64,000 nucleotides of DNA from Kiritimatiellia bacterium (lineage in GTDB: Bacteria > Verrucomicrobiota > Kiritimatiellia > RFP12 > UBA1067): the NCBI GenBank assembly GCA_050949565.1, contig JBMNFY010000017.1, positions 800,001 to 864,000 of the forward strand. Direction: 5' to 3'. Positions 5,403 to 58,954 of this stretch are shown in pieces. The first letter of the stretch is position 1. Each line of letters begins with the position of its first letter. The notes beneath the pieces were generated by a model. That model was not told where the DNA came from. It did no database searches and saw only the letters and a list, made by a program, of their open reading frames with translations. A program made the translations under genes and the position numbers.

Positions 5403-6236
5403 TCAGAGGCTTCGCAAGAACCAGACCGCAAAGGTGACGATAAAAACCAATGCCACGACAAGCAGGAGCCACACAAAGCCCGACCCCCGAATGGGCGTTG
5501 GAACCGGTGGCAATGGAGGCGCTATCTCATTGCTAACGTTGGAGCCGTATGACTCCAGCGATGTCCGCTCGGTTTGCGTGCACATCGAGGCGGCATGGTT
5601 GTTCGCAGGCGATTTTTCGTTGTTTTGATGTCGAATCGTCCGGCCAGAAGATGGAGGAGCCAATCGTGCCTCATAGTCCTCGAGTTTCTTTTTGCTCTCG
5701 CCCGTCAGCATCGCATCGTAGGTAGCGATCTTCTCAGGGACATCCTGAAATATCTTCTTCGCGCGCATTATGACGGTCTGCGCCTTGCTGTCTGCATGAT
5801 GCTTTATCAACACATTACACAGCCCGCCCTCTGGGGGAAATTGCGCCCACATGAAAAACTTCCTGTCAAGAGTCCCGCTTTCGACAAGTTCGGCAACAGT
5901 GTCAAGGAAATCCAAATAGGATGACACAGCCATTCTGCCGGTAGAGATCATAACCATTGCTTTCCCTGACTCGGTTGGCGCCACTTCATCCAAGTGATGA
6001 AGAACAAACGGCCACGCCTCAACCATCTTGTCTTGGAGAGCGACGCATTCCGCTTTGCGATGTATAACGTGGAACACGTCACCAAGCCCCTCGGCATCAC
6101 GCGCCCCAATAGAACGAGCCTGCATCTCGGCACCGGAAACAAGCCCCCGGATGCTTGCGATTTCATTTGAATCGTCAGCCGAGGCAATCATGGTTCCTTT
6201 AAGCGCCAACGCCAAAAGTACTAATGTTAATTTCAT
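5403..6236 (-). CDS. Exported membrane-anchored protein; putative cognate immunity protein of the 1717-aa protein
   Basis: ATGA overlap with the stop of 6233-11386, signal peptide MKLTLVLLALALKGTMIASA, Pro-rich linker, C-terminal TM helix. Confidence 0.8.
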   Translation of the reverse strand: MKLTLVLLALALKGTMIASADDSNEIASIRGLVSGAEMQARSIGARDAEGLGDVFHVIHRKAECVALQDKMVEAWPFVLHHLDEVAPTESGKAMVMISTGRMAVSSYLDFLDTVAELVESGTLDRKFFMWAQFPPEGGLCNVLIKHHADSKAQTVIMRAKKIFQDVPEKIATYDAMLTGESKKKLEDYEARLAPPSSGRTIRHQNNEKSPANNHAASMCTQTERTSLESYGSNVSNEIAPPLPPVPTPIRGSGFVWLLLVVALVFIVTFAVWFLRSL

Positions 6237-9200
6237 GGTTCGTACTTCCTAAACCCCGATGTTCCATCAAGAAAGGCTGGATACTTCTTATGTATCTTCC
6301 CGGCGAGAGAACCAGTGGCAATACCCTGTCCATCGTAGTCCACGATGCCCACATGGCCGGAACCAGCAGGGTTTGGATGGCCGACTATGAATCCGGGTTG
6401 TGGATAGGTTGGGTTCGGAATGAGAATCCAGTGATCAATATCCGTCTGTACACCCGGCGGGAAAATGGGGTGCGTGTCATCTTGGCCTGCCCATTGGTTC
6501 GCTGATGGCGGGTCTCCTCCTAGGTAGCCGCCAATCAAAGGAACCGTCGCTCCTGCTTGCGCAGCTCGATGAGCCACGAAAATGTTGCATTTGTTGGCAC
6601 CTGCAGCAACCTCTGGAAACCCGTACTGAGCGGGAACGACATCAGAAACCTCGTAGTCGGAGTTTCCCAAAAAACCCTTTGCCGCATTCCTGATGTTAAC
6701 TTGCATCTGTGTGTCCGCGACACCGAAGGCATCAGGATCGCCAGCCATTCCATAACCGTTAGCCTCATCACTCGTACGCTCATACACCTTTTCACACGAT
6801 ACAGTTCCTTCGGCACTGAGAACGGCCTTGATTCTGAACACTCCGCTTTGGGTTGTCGTGTGGGTATATGTCTTGCCGCTGGCCGATGTCCCGAAACTAG
6901 TCCAAGCCTCCCACAATCCATCTGCTTTAAGTCTTTGATAATACCACTTTGGTTCTTCGGCAGGTGGCACGTAGGAGTCTGGAAGAATATTTGCCTTCAT
7001 GGTAACGTTGTTTCCCTTCTTCACCACGAGCCCGTCGGGAGGTGCTCCGACCAGCTCAACAGATTCAATCTTCGGCACGATGATCCTGCCGGTTTCGCCG
7101 ATGGTGATGTCAAACTCGTTGCCGTGCCTCTCCTCCGTCAGCAGGCCGTACGAGTCCTCGACGATGAACGCGCCGGTGCCGTAGAGCCCCTCGCGCGCGC
7201 CCGCCCGCGCCGAGTCGTTGATCAGCGCCTGCCAGTCGAAATCGTGCCCCTCATCAAGGTTGGTGCCGATCCACCGCAGGCTGAAGATGTACGCCTTGCC
7301 CTTGACCAGCGCGTACTCCGCGCTGCCCGGCGTGCCGAATCCGTCGTCGCAGTGGCGCACGACATCCCTCCCGGTGATCTCTTCGAACACCTCGAAGTTC
7401 CAGCGCTCGGAATTACTGCTGCTCGGGTCGCCCACGGTGAGACTGAGCGTCACGCAGTTGGCCGGGTTGCCCTCGTCGTCCGGGTCGCAGGGACAGGAGC
7501 CGGGGCTGTGCGGCACCTCGTCGCCGTCCCAGACGCCGTCGCCGTCGGTGTCGGGGTTGGTCGGGTCGGTGCAGTAGCGGTATTCGTCGAGCAGTCCGAG
7601 GCCGTCGCCGTCGGCGTCCCAGGCGGGGCTGTTCGTCGCGGCGCACTCGCAGGGGCTGAGGCCGTACTGCAGTTCCCATCCGTCGGGCAGCATGTCGCCG
7701 TCGCAGTCCCAGACCAGCGGGTCCAGGCACGGCCAAACGGCCTTCAGGGCGACCTCGTCGCCGTCGGTCAGACCATCGCCGTCGGTGTCCTCCAACAGCG
7801 GATTGGTATTGTGGACGTTCACCTCGTCGCCGTCTTCGAGGCCGTCGTCATCGGTGTCTTCGTTGAACGGATCCGTGCCGTGCTGATATTCCTGAAGGTT
7901 GGTCAGCCCGTCGTCATCCGGGTCGTCCGCCGCGCCGTGTGTGCCGTCGGTCTGGACCACGCACGGGTTGAAATCATAGCGCACCTCCCAGCCGTCGGGC
8001 AGGCCGTCGCCGTCGGTGTCGGGATCCAGCGGATTGGTGTTGTGGACGTTGACCTCATCGCCGTCTGAAAGGCCGTCGCCGTCGGTGTCCCGCTTCCGGG
8101 GCTTTGTGCCGCGCTGATATTCCTGAAGGTTGGTCAGCCCGTCGTCATCCGGGTCGCCGTCCGCGCCGTCATCGCCCGACGCGGAAAGCGGGTTCAAGCC
8201 GTTGTCGACCTCCCATCCGTCGGGCAGGCCGTCGCCGTCGGTGTCCTTCAGCAATGGATCGGTGCCGTGGACGTTGACCTCGTCGCCGTCCGAAAGGCCG
8301 TCGCCGTCGGTGTCGGCGTTCAGCGGGTCGGTGAAAGTCTGCGGGCCGCCGACCAGAGCCAGCGAAAAGGTTATGCCGCCCCCCAGATAGCGGACCGTGC
8401 CGTCCGTGAAGGAGCGCCCTTCGGCCTGGCCCGAGCCGTTCGCTCCCCACGCGGCCACCTCTCCCGTCCCCGTGCAGGCGAGCGTGTGGTGGGCGCCCGC
8501 GCCGATCAGGGTGGCCGGCCCGAGACCCGGCGGGACTTGGTTCTGGCCGGATGCGCCGTCGCCCCAGCAGACGACCGCGCCGTCGGCGGTCAGCGCCGCG
8601 GTGTGGTCCCCCGCCGCCGCGACGGTGACGGCGTTTGTCAAGTCCGGCGGCACATCGCACTGGCGGGCGCTGTTCTGACCCCAGCAGACGACCGCGCCGT
8701 CGGCGGTCAGCGCCGCCGTGTGGAAGAAGCCCGCCGCGACGGCGACGGCGTTCGTCAGCCCGGCGGGCACGTCGCACTGATGGACATAGTTCTGACCCCA
8801 GCAGACCACCGTGCCGTCGGCGCGCAGCGCAGCGGTGTGGTAGGCGCCGGCGGTCACGGCCGAAACGTTCGTGGCCGAGTCCGGCGGCGTCAGCACATAA
8901 TGGCCCCCGCCGCCCCAGCAGACGACCGTGCCGTCGGCGCGCAGCGCCACGCTGTGCTCATCGCCGGCGGCGGCGGAAACGATGTTGGTCGCCTGCGGCG
9001 GCGGCGAGCACTGCCCGCGGTTGTTCCTGCCCCAGCAGACGGCCGTGCCGTCCCCCCTCACGGCGACCGTGTGGAAGAACGCTGCGGCGGCCTCCTTCAC
9101 ATTGAGCAGCCAGGCCGGGCGGGGGGCGGCGTCCGCCCCCGCGTACGGCGCGCCCCACTCGACGACGCGGTATCCCGCCGCCTCCAGGCTGTCGGAAAGG

Positions 9201-11386
9201 CCGTCGCCGTCAGAGTCGGGGTTCGCGGGCGAGGTGCCCAGGGCAAGCTCCGCGCCGTCCTCCAGTCCGTCGCCGTCCGTGTCCCGCACGAGCGGCGAGC
9301 CGCCCGACCCGAAATGATAGGCGATCGTCATGCTGTTGGTGATAAAAGGCTGGTCGTATGAGACGGGGAGGTTGATGGCGGCGCCGGGACCCTGCGCGCC
9401 CAGCGTCGCCGACGCGCCGGTGTTGTCCCCCGCAGTGTCGGCGTAGCGGACGCAGACGGTGTTCGTCGCGTCCGCAGGGATGACGACCTGGAACGAGACG
9501 CGGGCAGAAGAGTTCGTGTAGAAGCCCATGTCGCGGTATTCGATCACGCAGTGACGCGCGCCGTCCACCGTCACGTCCGCCACGGTGATCCGCGTGGCGG
9601 GGGCGTCGGGCGTGGCGGTGCGGGCGTAGAGGTTGTCCCAGTGGGCCGCCACGGCGAAATGCCTGAGGGAGAGAGTGAGGGTGCCCGTGAGGGCGCGGTT
9701 GTAGTTTTGGCTTTCGATCCAGCCGTCCACCGGCCTGGACCGGTCGATGAGGTACACGACGCCGTTGATGTCGAGCAGGGCGTTCGTGCAGACCGCGCCG
9801 CCGATGCGGACGGGGAACGGGAGCGCGGCCGGGATCAGGCCTGAGTTCAGGTTGGTGCCGCTGAGGACGGTTGTCCCGCCGGATGCGTCGAACCACGGGA
9901 GCGCCGCGGTCTCCCACCAGGCGGCCTCGATGCCGTCGGGGACGCCGTCGCCGTCGCTGTCGGGGTTGCGCGGGTCGGTGCCGGCGCGGAATTCGGCGAC
10001 GTTGGGCAGGCCGTCACCGTCGGGGTCGCCGTGCGCGTCGGCGGGGTCGAGGGGATCGAAGAGGTTGTCGAGTTCCCACTTGTCGTCCATGCCGTCGCCG
10101 TCGCTGTCGGCAAGGTCGAAGCGCGTCCCGTGCACCCACTTCTCGCTGGCGTCGGTCAGCCCGTCGCCGTCGGTGTCGGCGGCGTCGGCGAGGCGGAAGA
10201 AGCCGGTGTCCGTCAGCCAGACGGCGTTGGTGCAGATGACGTTGGTGTGCGTGACGCCCGGCGCGTAGGCGGACGGCGCGGTGTTCGTGACGCACGCGGG
10301 GGCCGGGGCCTCCGGCGGCGGGGGCAGGTCGGCGCGGGGGATGAGCAGGTCGACCCCGGCATCATCGGGATCAAGCGCGACCCGCCACGGGTTCGTCCAC
10401 GCGGGCGGAACCAGGGTGGGGGTGAAGAAGATGTCCAGCACGCCGCCCGCGAGCGCCGTGCCCGCCGGCCACGCGGCGGAGAGCGCGACGCCGTTCGTAT
10501 CGGATGAAATGCCGGTGAAGACCAGCCCGGTCAGCGCGGCGGGCGAGCGCGACGGCGCGCCGGCCGTGCTCCGCGTCCCCGCCGTCCCGCCGGAGCGGTA
10601 GACGCCGAGATCCTCCCGGAGGAGGAAGGTGAATGCCATCTCGACGTGCGAGGGCAGGAAATACTGCCGCGTGGACAGCCATGCCGAACGGTAAATGATC
10701 CGGTCCGGCGTCCGCATGCGGCGCGAGGGCCGCGCCAGCAAATCTTGATACACCCGCTCGGTGTCGAAGAAGTCTGGAGCCGTGCCATCGACGCTGTGGA
10801 GCCGGGCGATCCAGTCCGCCGACCAGACGCCGGCGTCGGCGGCGACCGACCAGAAAGGTTCGCCGGCCGCGTTGTAAAAGAGCATGTCGCCGCTGAGGTC
10901 GTCCGCGCACAGGAGCGCGCGCCACGCCTCGACGCCGTTGGCTTCCTCCGGCACGAGCCCCGCCAGGAACTCGGCCGGGAACCCCGGGGCCGCGGCGTCC
11001 AGGGGGATGACGCCGCCGTCCAGCCTGACCCGCCGTTCCGGGTCCGGCATGAGCACGCCCGCGCCCCGCGCCAGTTCGCGCTCCAGCTTCAGCGCCATGT
11101 CCAGCGGCGTGGCGGGCGTCCTGTACACGGAAGCGGGGCGGGAGGCGGGCGCGTCCGCCGGTTCCGCGTCTTCCTGCGCCAACGCATGGATCGATGCGAA
11201 AACGAGACCTGCGGACACGCATACCGCCGCGACAAGAAGCACAAGGCCTTTCGAAGCTCTTGCGAACCCCCTCGTGGCATGGGCGTCCCGCCCATGAAAC
11301 ACGGGCAGGATGCCCGTGTCACACTTGTTCACGACGGATTTTGCAAGAGCTTCTTTCTTTTTGTTATTTGTTCCGCCGTTTTCCAT
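6233..11386 (-). CDS. Large secreted multidomain protein (NIDO-like region, RCC1 repeats, DxDGDG/TSP3-like Ca-binding repeats, C-terminal NlpC/P60-CHAP-like domain); putative polymorphic toxin
   Basis: Purine-rich RBS and signal peptide. Many DTDGDGLxDGxE repeats and about six HTAAL..DG.VVCWG RCC1 blades. C-terminal NKCNIFV...GHVGIV Cys/His pair. Visible GC drop after GRIIVPKI (~7070). Confidence 0.85.
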   Translation of the reverse strand: MENGGTNNKKKEALAKSVVNKCDTGILPVFHGRDAHATRGFARASKGLVLLVAAVCVSAGLVFASIHALAQEDAEPADAPASRPASVYRTPATPLDMALKLERELARGAGVLMPDPERRVRLDGGVIPLDAAAPGFPAEFLAGLVPEEANGVEAWRALLCADDLSGDMLFYNAAGEPFWSVAADAGVWSADWIARLHSVDGTAPDFFDTERVYQDLLARPSRRMRTPDRIIYRSAWLSTRQYFLPSHVEMAFTFLLREDLGVYRSGGTAGTRSTAGAPSRSPAALTGLVFTGISSDTNGVALSAAWPAGTALAGGVLDIFFTPTLVPPAWTNPWRVALDPDDAGVDLLIPRADLPPPPEAPAPACVTNTAPSAYAPGVTHTNVICTNAVWLTDTGFFRLADAADTDGDGLTDASEKWVHGTRFDLADSDGDGMDDKWELDNLFDPLDPADAHGDPDGDGLPNVAEFRAGTDPRNPDSDGDGVPDGIEAAWWETAALPWFDASGGTTVLSGTNLNSGLIPAALPFPVRIGGAVCTNALLDINGVVYLIDRSRPVDGWIESQNYNRALTGTLTLSLRHFAVAAHWDNLYARTATPDAPATRITVADVTVDGARHCVIEYRDMGFYTNSSARVSFQVVIPADATNTVCVRYADTAGDNTGASATLGAQGPGAAINLPVSYDQPFITNSMTIAYHFGSGGSPLVRDTDGDGLEDGAELALGTSPANPDSDGDGLSDSLEAAGYRVVEWGAPYAGADAAPRPAWLLNVKEAAAAFFHTVAVRGDGTAVCWGRNNRGQCSPPPQATNIVSAAAGDEHSVALRADGTVVCWGGGGHYVLTPPDSATNVSAVTAGAYHTAALRADGTVVCWGQNYVHQCDVPAGLTNAVAVAAGFFHTAALTADGAVVCWGQNSARQCDVPPDLTNAVTVAAAGDHTAALTADGAVVCWGDGASGQNQVPPGLGPATLIGAGAHHTLACTGTGEVAAWGANGSGQAEGRSFTDGTVRYLGGGITFSLALVGGPQTFTDPLNADTDGDGLSDGDEVNVHGTDPLLKDTDGDGLPDGWEVDNGLNPLSASGDDGADGDPDDDGLTNLQEYQRGTKPRKRDTDGDGLSDGDEVNVHNTNPLDPDTDGDGLPDGWEVRYDFNPCVVQTDGTHGAADDPDDDGLTNLQEYQHGTDPFNEDTDDDGLEDGDEVNVHNTNPLLEDTDGDGLTDGDEVALKAVWPCLDPLVWDCDGDMLPDGWELQYGLSPCECAATNSPAWDADGDGLGLLDEYRYCTDPTNPDTDGDGVWDGDEVPHSPGSCPCDPDDEGNPANCVTLSLTVGDPSSSNSERWNFEVFEEITGRDVVRHCDDGFGTPGSAEYALVKGKAYIFSLRWIGTNLDEGHDFDWQALINDSARAGAREGLYGTGAFIVEDSYGLLTEERHGNEFDITIGETGRIIVPKIESVELVGAPPDGLVVKKGNNVTMKANILPDSYVPPAEEPKWYYQRLKADGLWEAWTSFGTSASGKTYTHTTTQSGVFRIKAVLSAEGTVSCEKVYERTSDEANGYGMAGDPDAFGVADTQMQVNIRNAAKGFLGNSDYEVSDVVPAQYGFPEVAAGANKCNIFVAHRAAQAGATVPLIGGYLGGDPPSANQWAGQDDTHPIFPPGVQTDIDHWILIPNPTYPQPGFIVGHPNPAGSGHVGIVDYDGQGIATGSLAGKIHKKYPAFLDGTSGFRKYEP
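11254..11352 (-). repeat. 99-bp palindromic MITE/REP-like element, in-frame within the signal-peptide region of the 1717-aa gene
   Basis: Terminal inverted repeats AAGCTCTTGCGAA / TTTGCAAGAGCTT and internal stems CATGGGCGTCCCGCCCATG and CACGGGCAGGATGCCCGTG. A homologous copy lies at 32370-32468. Confidence 0.85.
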
Positions 11387-32294: not shown

Positions 32295-32347
32295 ATGCGA
32301 ATGACAATGAACGATGATCGAATCAAGGGTTAAAGAGAGGTGCCCGA

Positions 32348-34279
32348 ATGAAAAAAAGTATGACTGTTCAGGCTCTTGCAAAACCCCTTGCTTGCAGGTG
32401 TGGCACGGGCATCTTGCCCGTGTTTCATGGGCGGGACGCCCATGCCACGAGGGGTTTTGCAAGAACCTCTGTTATTGCTGTCGGCCTTAGTCTCGTCGGC
32501 GCGGTTTGCGTAGCGGAAACGCCTGCGATCCGTTTGCCCCCTGACGCGCTCAAGACACGTCCGATCACGGCGACGGCCGACGCGATTCTCGCCAAGGGTT
32601 TCACGGTGACCCTTGAAGTCGATTTCGACGGTGTAAAGGATAATGAAACGCTTTACGAGGCAGGCTCCGCGAAACTCGCGTTCCGTCTGGCGGGAAAAAC
32701 AAAAGGGCTGGAAAGGTATGACAGCCGAGGCGGCAATTATTTGAATTTCCCGATGCCGGACGGTTCGTGCCCGGTGATCGAGGCGACAATCTGCAACCAT
32801 GCGGGACGCGTGGGAATCCCGCTCGGCTTTTTGGCGCGGAAGGACGGTGTCCACACCGTAATGCTCAACTTCTCCCCGGTCCACTGGTCAATTTGTGTGG
32901 ATGGGCACGTGGACAACGACATGCCGATACCGCAAGAACCGGTAACATGGCCGGCGCAGGCGCAGGAACGTGTTTTCTCGCCGCGCGTACGATCCGCAGT
33001 ATTTGTCGCGCCAGCGAAACCGGATGCGTTGCCACAAGCGGTGGACGCGAAGCGCGTAACGCGTCCGATCCAATACTGGACACCGGACGATCACAATGCG
33101 TGGGTCGGCGACGTGGCGGTGGGAACCTGGAAAGGGCGCTTCCATGTGTTCTATCTCTTCGACCGCCGTCATCACGGGTCAGGCGCGGGCAAGGGTCGTC
33201 ACTATTTCGCGCATCTTTCGTCCGGCGACCTCGCGAACTGGGATGAGCATCCCCTCGCGGTGCCGATTGATGACTGGTGGGAGTGCATCGGCACGGGCAC
33301 GCCGTTTGAACTGGACGGTAAGTACTGCCTCGCGTACGGGCTCCATACGGAGCGGATGATGCCGCAAGGGAAAGACTGTCCCGTGGGCGGCACCTACGCC
33401 GTGTCGGAGGACGGCATCCACTTCCGGAAAACGGGTGTGATGTTCACATCCGATCGCAACCCGAGTGTCTACAACCGCGCAGACGGTCGCCTCGGCATAG
33501 GCACGAAAAACGGACAGCTTTATTACCGAGAGGGTGACGCTTGGGATTGGAAACCCGCCGGCAAGCGCGCACCTGTGAGCGGGGATTGTCCCGCGCCGTT
33601 CACATGGGGTGGACAGGATTATCTCATCCAAGGGTTCTTCCACATGGCGTCGCGTCCGAACGAGTCCGGCGACTGGGAAGACTGGGCGGCCTCGGGCGAC
33701 GACGTCTACGAAGGGCTCTCCGTGCCGATGGTCGCCCCTTGGTCGGGCGACCGCCGCATCATGGTCGGCTGGCTCCGACATCTCTACGGTTGGGGCGGCT
33801 GGCTTGTCTTCCGTGAACTCGTGCGCTATCCCGACGGTAAACTCGGCGTAAAGTGGCTAGCGGAAACGCCGACACCGGCACCGCCGCAGACCTTCGCCGT
33901 GACCGATGTCACGAAGCCGTTCGTTGTGCGGGCGGTAGCAAAGGCGGGCGACACGGACTTTGAATTCCGCATCGATCCTGCCGAAGCGCGGGCGCAATTC
34001 CATTTCCCGCGCAAGGGCGAATCCGGCGCACGAGTTTTGACTACGGCAGAGTTTTTGAAAGTTCCCACGGACAAGCGCTCGACCGTCATCGGCGGCCACG
34101 CGTCATCCGGGGGAGCTTTCGCGCTCGGCAAGATCCGCGGGCTCGACAAGCCGTTCACCGTAAAGCTTGTGCAGTACTACGACGCGAAATCCGACGCGAC
34201 GATTTTCGACGTGGAAATCGCTGGCACCCAAACGATGATCACGTGCCGCGCGGGCCGCTTCGCGCCCGCCGCCCACTAG
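32348..34279 (+). CDS. Secreted beta-propeller glycoside hydrolase, GH32-like
   Basis: WVGD...HVFYL, HYFAHLSSGDLANWDEHP, IGTGT, SEDGIHF, DCP motifs; signal peptide interrupted by a repeat element. Confidence 0.7.
   Translation: MKKSMTVQALAKPLACRCGTGILPVFHGRDAHATRGFARTSVIAVGLSLVGAVCVAETPAIRLPPDALKTRPITATADAILAKGFTVTLEVDFDGVKDNETLYEAGSAKLAFRLAGKTKGLERYDSRGGNYLNFPMPDGSCPVIEATICNHAGRVGIPLGFLARKDGVHTVMLNFSPVHWSICVDGHVDNDMPIPQEPVTWPAQAQERVFSPRVRSAVFVAPAKPDALPQAVDAKRVTRPIQYWTPDDHNAWVGDVAVGTWKGRFHVFYLFDRRHHGSGAGKGRHYFAHLSSGDLANWDEHPLAVPIDDWWECIGTGTPFELDGKYCLAYGLHTERMMPQGKDCPVGGTYAVSEDGIHFRKTGVMFTSDRNPSVYNRADGRLGIGTKNGQLYYREGDAWDWKPAGKRAPVSGDCPAPFTWGGQDYLIQGFFHMASRPNESGDWEDWAASGDDVYEGLSVPMVAPWSGDRRIMVGWLRHLYGWGGWLVFRELVRYPDGKLGVKWLAETPTPAPPQTFAVTDVTKPFVVRAVAKAGDTDFEFRIDPAEARAQFHFPRKGESGARVLTTAEFLKVPTDKRSTVIGGHASSGGAFALGKIRGLDKPFTVKLVQYYDAKSDATIFDVEIAGTQTMITCRAGRFAPAAH
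32370..32468 (+). repeat. 99-bp palindromic MITE/REP-like element, in-frame within the signal-peptide region
   Basis: TIRs AGGCTCTTGCAAAACCCCT / AGGGGTTTTGCAAGAACCT (18 of 19 complementary). Translates as ALAKPLACRCGTGILPVFHGRDAHATRGFART. Confidence 0.88.
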
Positions 34280-46889: not shown

Positions 46890-47320
46890 CAGGGAGTCGG
46901 ATCGGGCGTCCCCGCCCGCAACAACGTGTCTTGCAAAAGGGTGTGGCACGGGCATCTTGCCCGTGTTCCATGGTTTCATTTTTTGACATGATTTGGAGGG
47001 CGAGTGTCCCCACGAGCCGCCTTCCGCCGTGCGGAAGGATGGTTTCAGGTTTCATTGCGGAGCACTGGGAGGGGCAAGCGTCTGCTTGCCTGCGGACGAG
47101 CAGACGCTCGTCCCTCCCCGGCGGCGGCCCCGCCACCCCGTAACTTTCAACTTTCAACGCTCAACTTCCAACTCTCAACTTTCAGCGGGCGAGGACGCCC
47201 GCTCCCGACTGCGCACACACAAAACACGCTCTCGACTCGCATGCCCCCTGTCACTTGCCTATAACTTGAGCGTTAAACGTTAACTCAGAACGCTGAACGT
47301 CGAACTCAGAACGTTTAAGT
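46890..47320. repeat. Intergenic repeat mosaic, including a half copy of the 99-bp element
   Basis: TCTTGCAAAAG...GTGGCACGGGCATCTTGCCCGTG (46929-46965), GAGGGCGAGTGTCCCCACGAGCCG, GGGGCAAGCGTCTGCTTGCC and TTCAAC heptamers. Confidence 0.78.
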
Positions 47321-52394: not shown

Positions 52395-53021
52395 GTACAA
52401 AAGCGGTGCCGCGAGGCACACTTTGTCCTTACACTTCGTCCAAAACACTTCGTCGCTGGCGCAATCGACTAAGTGTAAACGACTAAGCGTAACCGACTAA
52501 GTGTATGTCTCCGCGCAGCGGGAAATCATGTCGAAAAATGAACCTAAAAAGAGCAGTTGAGCATGCAGATTTTGAGCAAAACCCCGTAAACATTGGTTTC
52601 CGTTGAGATCCGCGCCGCACCTATTTGGTGCAGAACGCAATTTCTGATTGGAACCACGGAACACACTAAACACACGGAAAAAGAGCCATGCCTTTCCGTG
52701 TGTTCGGTGTGTTCCGTGGTTAAACAATCGATCCCGATAGCGATCCCGATCCCGATTTGGATGAAACCATGAAACCTTGAAACCAGAAACCAAAGAGAGT
52801 TGAAGGTTCAACTGCTCTTTTTAGGATGAAACCATGGAACACGGGCAAGATGCCCGTGCCACACCCTTTTGCAAGACACGTTATTGCGGGCGAGGACGCC
52901 CGCACTCTTTTAATCTGCGTAATCGTAAATCTGTGGATAAAAACCCGAGCCATGCCCCCCCAAAAAACCTTCGTGTCCTTGACTTCGTGGTAAGAATTTT
53001 GGGGTGCGGGCTGCGCCCGCG
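52395..53021. repeat. Intergenic repeat mosaic
   Basis: 52399-52505 is a reverse-complement relative of 34450-34550. Also CGATCC hexamers, a half copy of the 99-bp element (52832-52876) and the TGCGGGCTGCGCCCGC end. Confidence 0.75.
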
Positions 53022-58792: not shown

Positions 58793-58868
58793 TGGTAGGG
58801 GTGCACGGACTCGAACCGTGGACCCAGTGATTAAGAGTCACTTGCTCTACCAACTGAGCTACACCCCC
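58793..58868 (-). tRNA. tRNA-Lys (CTT)
   Basis: 76 nt: GGGGGTGTAGCTCAGTTGGTAGAGCAAGTGACTCTTAATCAC...GTTCGAG...CACCCCTACCA. Confidence 0.97.
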
Positions 58869-58878
58869 ATAAAAAGCA

Positions 58879-58954
58879 TGGAGCGAGTGATGGGTCTCGA
58901 ACCCACAACCTCGACCTTGGCAAGGTCGCGCTCTACCAATTGAGCTACACCCGC
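58879..58954 (-). tRNA. tRNA-Gly (GCC)
   Basis: 76 nt: GCGGGTGTAGCTCAATTGGTAGAGCGCGACCTTGCCAAGGTCG...GTTCGAG...CTCGCTCCA. Confidence 0.97.

What the first reader, a model, noticed from the sequence alone, without database searches (positions are those of the whole stretch)
11254..11352. The same 99-bp palindromic element lies in-frame inside the signal peptides of two unrelated secreted proteins
Seen: copies at 11254-11352 (minus) and 32370-32468 (plus) are both 99 bp, in the same orientation and frame relative to their genes, and both encode ALAK......GILPVFHGRDAHATRGFAR. Each sits between the basic n-region and the hydrophobic h-region; removing it leaves ordinary signals (MENGGTNNKKK..KGLVLLVAAV; MKKSMTV..SVIAVGLSLVGA). 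Both ATGs have an RBS upstream of the element. Non-coding half copies occur at 46929-46973 and 52832-52876. Established: Rickettsia palindromic elements insert in-frame into genes. Inference: a selfish repeat sheltering in cleaved signal peptides, or an mRNA hairpin that modulates translation and export.
Basis: partly seen in the sequence, partly recalled or inferred. Interest (0 to 1): 0.82.

Follow-up and report, generated by a model that had tools for sequence, protein, structure and literature searches.

The report
Mini-transposon inside two export signals
A 101-base non-autonomous transposon of a Kiritimatiellia bacterium has landed, without breaking the reading frame, in the cut-off export signal of two secreted-protein genes; this is a tolerated insertion of a kind already known in bacteria.

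Summary
Both copies are full members of an abundant repeat family: 271 loci in the 4.66-Mb genome, mostly between genes.

The element is a MITE. It is 101 bp long, has 15-19-nt terminal inverted repeats and makes a 4-bp target duplication. The same genome holds a 1653-bp IS5/IS1182-like insertion sequence with the same ends, in 12 near-identical copies.

Element plus duplication add 105 bp, or 35 codons, so an insertion never shifts the frame.

Congeneric genomes keep the empty sites. In both genes the ancestral ribosome-binding site, ATG and basic n-region lie upstream of the insert. The hydrophobic core lies directly downstream.

Two more genes in this genome show the same arrangement with the element in other frames or orientation, and four further candidates exist. 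The shared frame of the two window copies is therefore coincidence.

Gene A kept purifying selection (dN/dS 0.42) with the insert in place.

Most likely reading: selfish DNA surviving where 35 extra, net-positive residues are harmless and later cleaved off. A regulatory hairpin role has no support here. Which start codon is used remains untested.

In-frame MITE fusions, including one partly forming a signal peptide, are in print. This scan has noted the same situation in at least 22 other genomes.

The parts
11253..11353 (-). MITE copy A, 101 bp, with terminal inverted repeats and two internal hairpins
   Evidence: (nhmmer score 91.4, E 1e-25). It is absent from the G006 orthologue and present in the G002 orthologue.
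11354..11357 (-). Upstream copy of the 4-bp target-site duplication of copy A; lies within codons 10-11 of gene A
11249..11252 (-). Downstream copy of the 4-bp target-site duplication of copy A
11354..11386 (-). Ancestral ATG (11384-11386) and basic n-region, codons 1-11 of gene A
   Evidence: Aligns base for base with the start of the G006 orthologue, which has no element. There are 0 non-synonymous changes against G002.
11183..11248 (-). Hydrophobic core and probable cleavage region of the gene A signal peptide (limits approximate, judged by eye and by the hydropathy screen)
6233..11386 (-). Gene A, 1717 aa, bacterial TSP3 repeats and RCC1-like repeats; secreted or surface protein
   Evidence: dN/dS 0.42 over 316 codons against G002.
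11300..11302 (-). In-frame GTG inside copy A (possible alternative start, untested)
32369..32469 (+). MITE copy B, 101 bp
   Evidence: (score 106.7, E 1.8e-30). It is absent from the G002 orthologue, which is 95% identical in protein.
32365..32368 (+). Upstream copy of the 4-bp target-site duplication of copy B
32470..32473 (+). Downstream copy of the 4-bp target-site duplication of copy B
32348..32368 (+). Ancestral ATG and n-region, codons 1-7 of gene B, preceded by a purine-rich ribosome-binding site
   Evidence: Aligns with the start of the G002 orthologue.
32474..32515 (+). Hydrophobic core and probable cleavage region of the gene B signal peptide (limits approximate)
   Evidence: There is no ATG, GTG or TTG between the element and this core.
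32348..34279 (+). Gene B, 643 aa, glycoside hydrolase family 32-like
   Evidence: (PF00251, E 3.3e-07)
32420..32422 (+). In-frame GTG inside copy B (an in-frame TTG lies at 32414-32416); possible alternative starts, untested
46903..46979 (+).
52826..52902 (-). Right 77-nt arm, inverted copy of the left arm, 97% complementary, 5846 nt away
   Evidence: Ordinary cellular genes lie between the arms.

Best explanation
The element is a 101-bp MITE, a non-autonomous derivative of a 1653-bp IS5/IS1182-like insertion sequence that is active in the same Kiritimatiellia genome.

The IS transposase, supplied in trans, pastes the element into a 4-bp staggered cut. Each insertion therefore adds 101 + 4 = 105 bp, exactly 35 codons, and cannot shift a reading frame. 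Most reading frames of the element carry no stop and encode net-positive peptides.

In genes A and B the element landed between the basic n-region and the hydrophobic core of a Sec-type signal peptide. Inferred: translation still starts at the ancestral ATG and reads through the element. This yields a signal peptide with a 35-residue longer, still positively charged n-region, which is removed on export so that the mature protein is unchanged.

That is why such copies survive while insertions elsewhere in genes are purged. The element has no function for the host at these sites.
For: SHOWN, identity as a MITE:
- 271 loci, of which 92 run end to end.
- Of 73 full copies that are not IS ends, 67 have G before and 59 have C after the 99-nt core.
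- 32 of the 73 have a perfect 4-bp duplication and 9 more match 3 of 4, against 0.8% and 5.1% in mismatched-pair controls.
- A 1653-bp repeat is present in 12 copies at 98.5-99.8% identity plus one diverged copy. Its ends are the same as the MITE's, its last ~97 nt are the MITE body, and its duplications are mostly 4 bp.
- The IS ORF matches DDE_Tnp_1 and DUF772, and IS1182/IS5 NCBIfam models below their cut-offs.

SHOWN, insertion events:
- Gene B: the G002 orthologue (95% protein identity) lacks exactly 105 bp. Its start and n-region align with the stretch upstream of the element.
- Gene A: the G006 orthologue (91%) lacks the same 105 bp, with ribosome-binding site, ATG and n-region aligned. 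G002 carries the element in frame.
- The same pattern holds for the genes at G000:C6:125135 and G000:C8:77055, in other element frames.

SHOWN, tolerance:
- Gene A shows dN/dS 0.42 over 316 mature-part codons between two genomes that both carry the insert. The element itself shows 0.69 over 35 codons.

SHOWN, position bias:
- An automated screen finds 8 copies directly followed by a hydrophobic core with no start codon in between. Four copies are ambiguous, with no core.
- 31% of called genes have an N-terminal hydrophobic window. P(8 of 8) is 9e-5 and P(at least 8 of 12) is 0.013.
- The other intragenic loci are 9 at gene 3' ends and 8 internal.

Other points:
- All open frames of copy B carry net charge +2 to +5.
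- Contigs from RNA libraries run from both flanks into element B. This is weak evidence, because such libraries can hold DNA.
Against: - Nothing here shows which start codon is used. Both elements carry in-frame GTG and TTG codons, and gene A has a GTG four codons after the element.
- At G000:C12:44493 no convincing start lies upstream of the element, and the orthologue's N-terminus does not align there. At that locus an in-element start is the simpler reading.
- No signal-peptide predictor was available. 'Signal peptide' rests on a hydropathy window and on reading the sequences.
- The enrichment test is partly circular. An N-terminal insertion in a cytoplasmic protein is recognisable only when no start codon follows.
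- My gene calls are a home-made codon-usage caller that mis-set the start of gene B.
- The G006 copy of gene A has an apparent frameshift about 45 codons after the signal peptide, so that comparison gene may be broken or mis-assembled.
- The transposase was not found in G002 or G004, although both hold many MITE copies. Both are fragmented assemblies, 56% and 78% complete.
- The 97 'core only' and 82 'partial' loci lack the inverted ends and may spread by another route.
Confidence: 0.75

Rival explanations
1. The element is functionally 5' leader, or donates the start. Translation begins at the in-frame GTG or TTG inside the element, or in gene A at the GTG just after it. The ancestral ATG would then be a dead remnant, and the second half of the element would supply a new basic n-region.
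For: - In-frame GTG and TTG codons occur in both copies, and a GTG lies 4 codons after element A.
- At G000:C12:44493 no convincing start lies upstream of the element, and the orthologue's N-terminus does not align with that stretch.
- Dozens of family copies lie just upstream of ordinary start codons with the frame open by accident.
- The element-encoded stretch evolves nearly neutrally (dN/dS 0.69, 9 changes in all).
Against: - No purine-rich ribosome-binding site precedes the in-element GTG; it sits inside a hairpin stem.
- The ancestral ribosome-binding site, ATG and n-region are intact, and in gene A unchanged at the protein level between G000 and G002.
- A start at the GTG after element A would leave a signal peptide with no charged n-region.
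Confidence: 0.18
2. The element is kept at these sites because it does something. One option is a very stable mRNA hairpin 22-34 nt after the start codon that slows early elongation or sets mRNA stability. Another is a longer n-region that alters targeting of the exported protein.
For: - Predicted RNA folds of -76 and -71 kcal/mol, z -6.3 and -3.9.
- The gene A insertion has persisted in frame across the G000/G002 split.
- The situation recurs in 4 to 8 exported-protein genes of one genome.
Against: - About 87% of the loci are not in genes (235 of 271 with my crude gene starts).
- The verified signal-peptide copies use three different frames or orientations, so no common peptide is selected.
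- Close relatives do without the insert.
- The element stretch shows no protein-level constraint.
- No Rfam family matches.
- The stable fold is simply the palindrome of a transposon with inverted ends.
Confidence: 0.07
3. The insertions have disabled export or the genes, so these are young pseudogenes, not tolerated insertions.
For: - A 35-residue n-region extension is unusual.
- The gene B insertion is young (absent from a 95%-identical orthologue), so decay might not yet show.
- The G006 gene A copy shows a frameshift, which hints that this gene is dispensable in some lineages.
Against: - Both ORFs are intact over 1717 and 643 codons.
- Gene A shows dN/dS 0.42 with the insert present in both genomes compared.
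- Contigs from RNA libraries cover gene B on both sides of the element (weak).
Confidence: 0.07
4. The two copies are REP/REPIN-type palindromes spread by a RAYT (Y1 transposase), not IS-dependent MITEs.
For: - The inner core is a doublet of short GC-rich hairpins.
- Related double-hairpin units form 63-bp tandem arrays next to a weak Y1_Tnp match at G000:C10:220305-221894, and the genome has 5 Y1_Tnp matches over the Pfam cut-off.
- 179 of the 271 loci lack the inverted ends.
Against: - Both window copies have the full inverted ends shared with the DDE-type IS and clean 4-bp duplications. As I recall it, REPINs make no duplications.
- Only 3 of the 7 Y1_Tnp matches have a family member within 2.5 kb, and 21% of the genome lies that close to one.
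Confidence: 0.03

Closest known systems
Rickettsia palindromic elements (RPE; Ogata et al. 2000, as summarised in the review PMC10969869, passages read)
   Same: Short palindromic repeats that sit in frame inside protein genes, add a peptide segment, and are tolerated. Both are selfish DNA inside coding sequence.
   Different: - Unrelated sequence and host (a Kiritimatiellia genome here).
- This element has clear inverted ends, 4-bp duplications and a resident parent IS.
- Only about 25 of its 271 loci are intragenic, and these cluster in signal peptides and at gene 3' ends. RPEs are reported inside metabolic enzymes.
Yersinia palindromic sequence / RU-2 and other enterobacterial MITE-ORF fusions (Delihas; review PMC2229807, passages read)
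   Same: MITE sequence fused in frame to ORFs. That paper describes one locus (YPO1552) as an exported protein whose signal peptide is partly formed by the MITE.
   Different: There the MITE is proposed to create part of a new signal peptide through its own hydrophobic cluster. Here the element is hydrophilic and basic, and splits a pre-existing signal peptide whose ancestral state is seen in empty-site orthologues.
MITEs derived from IS5-family insertion sequences (for example the IS1106_IS5 group named in PMC11602168, passage read; Correia elements of Neisseria, recalled)
   Same: About 100-150-bp internally deleted IS derivatives with the ends of the parent IS, mobilised in trans, mostly intergenic. 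That survey reports 90.4% of bacterial MITEs as intergenic; my crude figure here is 87%.
   Different: A new sequence family in a PVC-group bacterium. The 4-bp duplications show no evident target consensus. The body is a hairpin doublet resembling the genome's REP-like modules.
QMITE1/QMITE2 of Coxiella burnetii (PMC5896051, passages read)
   Same: MITEs that overlap gene 3' ends and supply the last residues and the stop codon. The same is seen here at 9 loci.
   Different: That paper does not mention signal peptides (0 occurrences).

Membership tests
MITE (miniature inverted-repeat transposable element) | Short, with no transposase gene | tested here: met
   The element is 101 bp. The core length is 99 nt in 52 of 85 end-to-end copies.
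MITE (miniature inverted-repeat transposable element) | Terminal inverted repeats | tested here: met
   15-19-nt inverted ends are visible in all listed full copies. The terminal G and C are kept in 67 and 59 of 73 copies.
MITE (miniature inverted-repeat transposable element) | Target-site duplication of fixed length | tested here: met
   A perfect 4-bp duplication occurs in 32 of 73 copies and a 3-of-4 match in 9, against 0.8% and 5.1% in controls. Other length models fit worse.
MITE (miniature inverted-repeat transposable element) | Many dispersed copies | tested here: met
   271 loci on 19 of 21 contigs.
MITE (miniature inverted-repeat transposable element) | An autonomous element with the same ends that can supply transposase | tested here: met
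   A 1653-bp IS with identical ends is present in 12 near-identical copies, with intact DDE transposase ORFs.
MITE (miniature inverted-repeat transposable element) | Evidence of movement (filled versus empty orthologous sites) | tested here: met
   Four loci have empty sites in congeners. Actual transposition was not assayed.
IS5 / IS1182 families (parent IS) | DDE_Tnp_1-type transposase reaching the family model's curated score | tested here: inconclusive
   Pfam DDE_Tnp_1 (37.8 bits, cut-off 23) and DUF772 (36.3 bits, cut-off 23.1) are met. The NCBIfam IS1182 model scores 89.9 bits against a cut-off of 270, and the IS5 models score 69.3 and 63.5 against 140 and 110.
IS5 / IS1182 families (parent IS) | Family-typical ends and target (ISfinder criteria) | not testable with these tools
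   No ISfinder library was on hand. The duplication is mostly 4 bp, but 5 bp, 7 bp and none also occur among the IS copies.
Rickettsia palindromic elements | Sequence membership in an RPE family, in Rickettsia | tested here: not met
   The host is a Kiritimatiellia genome (record titles). No Rfam family matched at E up to 10. Whether Rfam holds RPE models was not checked.
Rickettsia palindromic elements | In-frame residence inside genes that stay functional | tested here: met
   There are four verified in-frame insertions. Gene A has dN/dS 0.42 with the insert. This concerns how the element behaves, not membership.
REP / REPIN with RAYT | Short palindromes without target duplication, tied to a Y1 transposase | tested here: not met
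   The full copies have duplications and DDE-IS ends. Y1_Tnp genes exist in the genome, but only 3 of 7 have a family member within 2.5 kb. That REPINs lack duplications is recalled.
Sec-type signal peptide (the host site) | Basic n-region, hydrophobic core, small-residue cleavage site | tested here: inconclusive
   A hydropathy window of at least 2.0 begins 0 residues after both elements. The n-regions and probable cleavage sites were read by eye. No dedicated predictor was available.

The most novel reading that the evidence does not exclude
In Kiritimatiellia and other PVC bacteria, the n-region of signal peptides is not merely a safe harbour but a place where MITEs are put to use. The frame-neutral, stop-poor, positively charged 35-codon cassette, with its strong hairpin just after the start codon and its own in-frame GTG, would act as a portable module that retunes initiation, early elongation or targeting of exported proteins. 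Selection would then keep some copies.
Probability: 0.08. Interest if true: 0.65.

Novelty: new member of a known kind. Interest (0 to 1): 0.3.

Why it matters
For this genome, the result gives the repeat family a name and a mechanism: a MITE with its parent IS.

It fixes the true starts of at least four exported-protein genes. Gene callers may truncate or mis-start these genes.

It warns that about 270 copies produce spurious, conserved-looking peptides in open reading frames.

More generally, it is a clean, empty-site-verified example of signal-peptide n-regions and gene 3' ends as the places inside genes where a mostly intergenic MITE persists. That pattern has been met repeatedly in this scan. 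In print I found it only as single cases: the Yersinia example in PMC2229807, and no mention of signal peptides in the reviews PMC10969869 and PMC11602168.

A systematic survey could make this a usable rule for annotation and for estimating how tolerant Sec signals are to n-region length.

Tried and rejected
- Rfam: no family matched the element at gathering scores over the whole window, or at E up to 10 on 32300-32540.
- Stop-free frames as a selected property: copy B is open in 5 of 6 frames and copy A in only 3 of 6. Of 5000 dinucleotide shuffles of copy B, 34% have 5 or more open frames. Rejected.
- Preference for the 5' side of genes, my impression: not borne out. The intergenic loci are 152 tandem, 43 divergent and 38 convergent, against 56%, 28% and 16% of intergenic length. 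In tandem spacers, 97 of 151 lie nearer the upstream stop. Flanks are AT-richer (55%) than the genome (40%). A taste for AT-rich targets such as Lys-rich n-regions therefore stays an untested idea.
- RNA evidence: all four runs laid are assembled contigs. None bridges element B, none shows the empty allele, and the listed joints are repeat artefacts. Nothing follows about starts, strand or level.
- Empty sites for other candidates: no orthologue was found for the G000:C17:279971 gene in five congeners. The only orthologue of the G000:C17:1612630 gene (G002) also carries the element. The region upstream of the G000:C12:44493 gene is not alignable with G001. G000:C17:985098 was not tested.
- Copies in other genomes: of 9 long open frames that hold the element in G002, G004, G007 and G035, most have a start codon after it. 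Only G035:C78 looks like a further N-terminal in-frame case.
- Transposase in G002 and G004: not found. Both are fragmented and incomplete, so this says little.
- My home-made gene caller is good enough for gene bodies but not for starts. Counts that depend on starts are rough.
- Literature: six full-text searches gave no paper on MITEs in Kiritimatiellia and no systematic account of MITEs in signal peptides. This covers only the held library. Supplements were not opened.
Full report
WHAT IS THERE

Each is read through without a stop by a long ORF. Gene A, 6233-11386(-), encodes 1717 aa with bacterial TSP3 and RCC1-like repeats. Gene B, 32348-34279(+), encodes 643 aa with a GH32-like domain. 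The copies are 94% identical over the central 67 nt. They have the same orientation and frame relative to their genes.

A REPEAT FAMILY, NOT A PAIR

The window is G000:C17:800001-864000 of a 4.66-Mb, 21-contig, 60% G+C genome. An iterated nhmmer search gave 477 hits, which collapse to 271 distinct loci. Of these, 92 run end to end, 97 hold only the two-hairpin core and 82 are partial.

Record titles of other genomes that hold the exact 41-nt core are Kiritimatiellia MAGs, some filed as 'Verrucomicrobia' or 'Lentisphaerae'. A few records are labelled Nitrospirales, Victivallales or Lentisphaerales.

Among 41 related genomes, 14 have a DNA match at E up to 1e-6. There are many first-look candidates in G000 (272), G004 (199), G002 (112) and G035 (89). 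There are few or none elsewhere, including the congeners G001 and G006.

ANATOMY AND MOBILITY

I listed the flanks of 85 end-to-end copies. Twelve of them are ends of a larger repeat, which leaves 73.
- The base after it is C in 59 of the 73.
- The element is therefore 101 bp with perfectly inverted termini.
- Outside these termini, a 4-bp direct repeat is perfect in 32 of 73 copies and matches 3 of 4 in 9 more. Mismatched-pair controls give 0.8% and 5.1%. Models with other element or duplication lengths fit worse.

For the window copies, the duplications are 11354-11357/11249-11252 and 32365-32368/32470-32473. Element plus duplication add 105 bp, or 35 codons.

THE PARENT

Eleven copies shared an identical left flank. 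Extending one of them uncovered a 1653-bp repeat present 12 times at 98.5-99.8% identity, plus one diverged copy.
- Its two ends are the MITE's inverted ends.
- Its last ~97 nt are the MITE body.
- It is flanked mostly by 4-bp duplications.
- Its ORF matches Pfam DDE_Tnp_1 and DUF772. It matches the IS1182 and IS5 NCBIfam models below their curated cut-offs.
- The transposase occurs in 13 matches in G000, nine of them full length at 99-100% identity. It occurs at 83% identity in G035, which also holds many MITE copies. It was not found in the fragmented G002 and G004.

The MITE looks like the IS with everything deleted between its left end and an internal near-repeat of that end. This last point is inference.

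THE TWO INSERTIONS ARE REAL EVENTS INSIDE SIGNAL PEPTIDES

Gene B. The G002 orthologue is 95% identical in protein and begins with a short basic n-region followed at once by the hydrophobic core. A pairwise alignment shows the G000 ribosome-binding site, start and first seven codons aligned to G002. A clean gap covers the element and one duplication copy. The alignment then resumes in the hydrophobic core.

Gene A. The G006 orthologue (91%) lacks the same 105 bp, again with ribosome-binding site, ATG and the Lys-rich n-region aligned. G002 carries the element at the same place, in frame.

The gene A insertion therefore predates the G000/G002 split, and the gene B insertion is younger. One caveat: the G006 gene shows an apparent frameshift about 45 codons further on.

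NOT FRAME-SPECIFIC, AND RECURRENT

I listed every copy that lies in the 5' part of a called ORF. Most are simply upstream of an ordinary start codon, with the frame open by accident. In some of those ORFs no start codon exists upstream of the element at all.

Eight copies are directly followed by a hydrophobic core with no start codon in between. An automated hydropathy screen returns the same eight. Their status is as follows.
- Two more have empty-site orthologues with a conserved upstream start and n-region. These are the genes at G000:C6:125135 (opposite orientation) and G000:C8:77055 (another frame).
- One is shared with G002.
- One has an orthologue without the element, but its upstream region cannot be aligned. 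There an in-element start is the simpler reading.
- One has no orthologue among five congeners.
- One was not tested.

This gives four verified cases in three different element frames. The common frame of A and B is coincidence.

WHERE THE FAMILY LIVES

With crude gene starts, 235 of 271 loci are not in genes. They break down as 152 tandem, 43 divergent, 38 convergent and 2 at contig ends.

The intragenic loci, apart from a tandem array described below, number about 25.
- 8 are signal-peptide cases.
- 9 overlap gene 3' ends, where the element supplies the last residues and the stop.
- 8 are internal, and some of these are probably two genes joined by an open frame.

The first 15 codons of genes with an N-terminal hydrophobic window make up 1.1% of all codons. 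Eight of 25 falling there has P = 2e-10. Given 31% of genes with such a window, P(8 of 8) is 9e-5. P(at least 8 of 12) is 0.013 if the four ambiguous copies are counted against.

The test is partly circular and rests on my own gene calls. The direction is clear; the numbers are rough.

WHY IT IS TOLERATED

The insertion is frame-neutral by length. Copy B is open in five frames and copy A in three. All open frames of copy B encode net charge +2 to +5, which suits an n-region.

Being stop-poor is not special, since 34% of shuffles do as well.

Between G000 and G002, which both carry the gene A insert, the figures are as follows.
- Mature part: dN/dS 0.42 over 316 codons.
- Hydrophobic and cleavage region: 0.48 over 29 codons.
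- Element: 0.69 over 35 codons, 9 changes in all.
- The 11 codons before the element: no amino-acid change.

The gene has therefore stayed under selection with the insert, while the insert itself drifts.

WHAT REMAINS OPEN

The start codon in use is not known. In-frame GTG and TTG codons lie inside both elements (11300-11302; 32420-32422 and 32414-32416), and a GTG follows element A. They lack a visible ribosome-binding site and sit in hairpin stems. The ancestral ribosome-binding site and ATG are intact. On that basis I favour read-through at about 3 to 1.

The RNA would fold very stably (-76 and -71 kcal/mol; z -6.3 and -3.9), beginning 22 and 34 nt after the ATG. Whether this matters is untested.

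Contigs from three RNA libraries of digester or sludge metagenomes reach into element B from both sides: X15 to 32414 and from 32460, and X17 from 32440. None bridges it, and such libraries can hold DNA.

COMPARISON WITH WHAT IS KNOWN

In-frame fusions of MITEs with host ORFs are described for RPEs, ERIC, BOX and others (review PMC10969869, passages). Overlaps with gene 3' ends are described for Coxiella QMITEs (PMC5896051, passages). A Yersinia locus whose signal peptide is partly formed by a MITE is described in PMC2229807 (passages).

The review and the 183,232-genome survey PMC11602168 do not mention signal peptides. That survey reports 90.4% of bacterial MITEs as intergenic, close to what I see here.

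Six searches of the held library found nothing on MITEs in Kiritimatiellia.

Earlier notes of this scan describe the same situation in at least 22 other genomes, 23 notes in all, and describe other repeat families in this same genome. They are unchecked AI notes and I did not test them. My own N- and C-terminal pattern was in hand before I read them.

VERDICT

The element is a new MITE family with its parent IS, and its in-frame residence in signal peptides is verified by empty sites. This is a new member of a known kind. It is neat and useful for annotation, but not surprising to a specialist.

Noticed in passing
G000:C17:287074-288726 (L127) and 11 further copies, outside the window: A 1653-bp IS5/IS1182-like insertion sequence is present in 12 copies at 98.5-99.8% identity plus one diverged copy. 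Its inverted ends and last ~97 nt equal the MITE, so it appears recently active.
   Followed up: yes
They bracket 5846 nt that hold ordinary genes: a TrkA_N-domain protein, an unnamed ORF and a mandelate racemase/enolase-family enzyme. They could support inversion of the segment. No transposase lies between them.
   Followed up: partly
G000:C10:220305-221894 (L104): 63-bp tandem arrays (3.8 and 2.9 units) of a related double hairpin lie in frame inside a 1311-codon open frame. That frame also holds a weak Y1_Tnp match (26 bits) and a methyltransferase-like motif. This may be a REP/RAYT-type arrangement or repeat expansion inside a gene.
   Followed up: partly
G000: C13:15121, C2:17610, C7:160930, C8:49092, C10:329642, C17:642011, C17:347369, C17:994301-994416, C15:68556: At nine loci a family copy overlaps the 3' end of a gene and supplies its last 0-41 codons and the stop. 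This is the C-terminal counterpart of the signal-peptide cases.
   Followed up: partly
G000:C8:276632-276729 (L106): A full copy lies in frame deep inside a long ORF, 789 codons upstream and 543 downstream, both with coding signal. It sits right after an acidic low-complexity stretch, so it may be a tolerated insertion in a linker.
   Followed up: no
L020 / L013 (G006:C77), orthologue of gene A: The empty-site orthologue matches gene A in two different frames, residues 1-46 and 38-364. This is an apparent frameshift soon after the signal peptide, either a broken gene or an assembly error.
   Followed up: no
Genome-contig loci L037, L060, L073, L078, L096: The exact 41-nt core of the element also occurs in MAGs labelled Nitrospirales, Lentisphaerales and Victivallales. 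Possible causes are mis-binning, old labels or transfer between lineages.
   Followed up: no
window 58796-58868 and 58882-58954 (-): Two adjacent tRNA genes were the only Rfam matches in the window.
   Followed up: no
G000:C12:44493-44590 (L099): Here the element precedes a signal-peptide core, but no convincing start lies upstream of it, and short tandem repeats sit just before it. This is the best candidate in the genome for a start codon donated by the element.
   Followed up: partly
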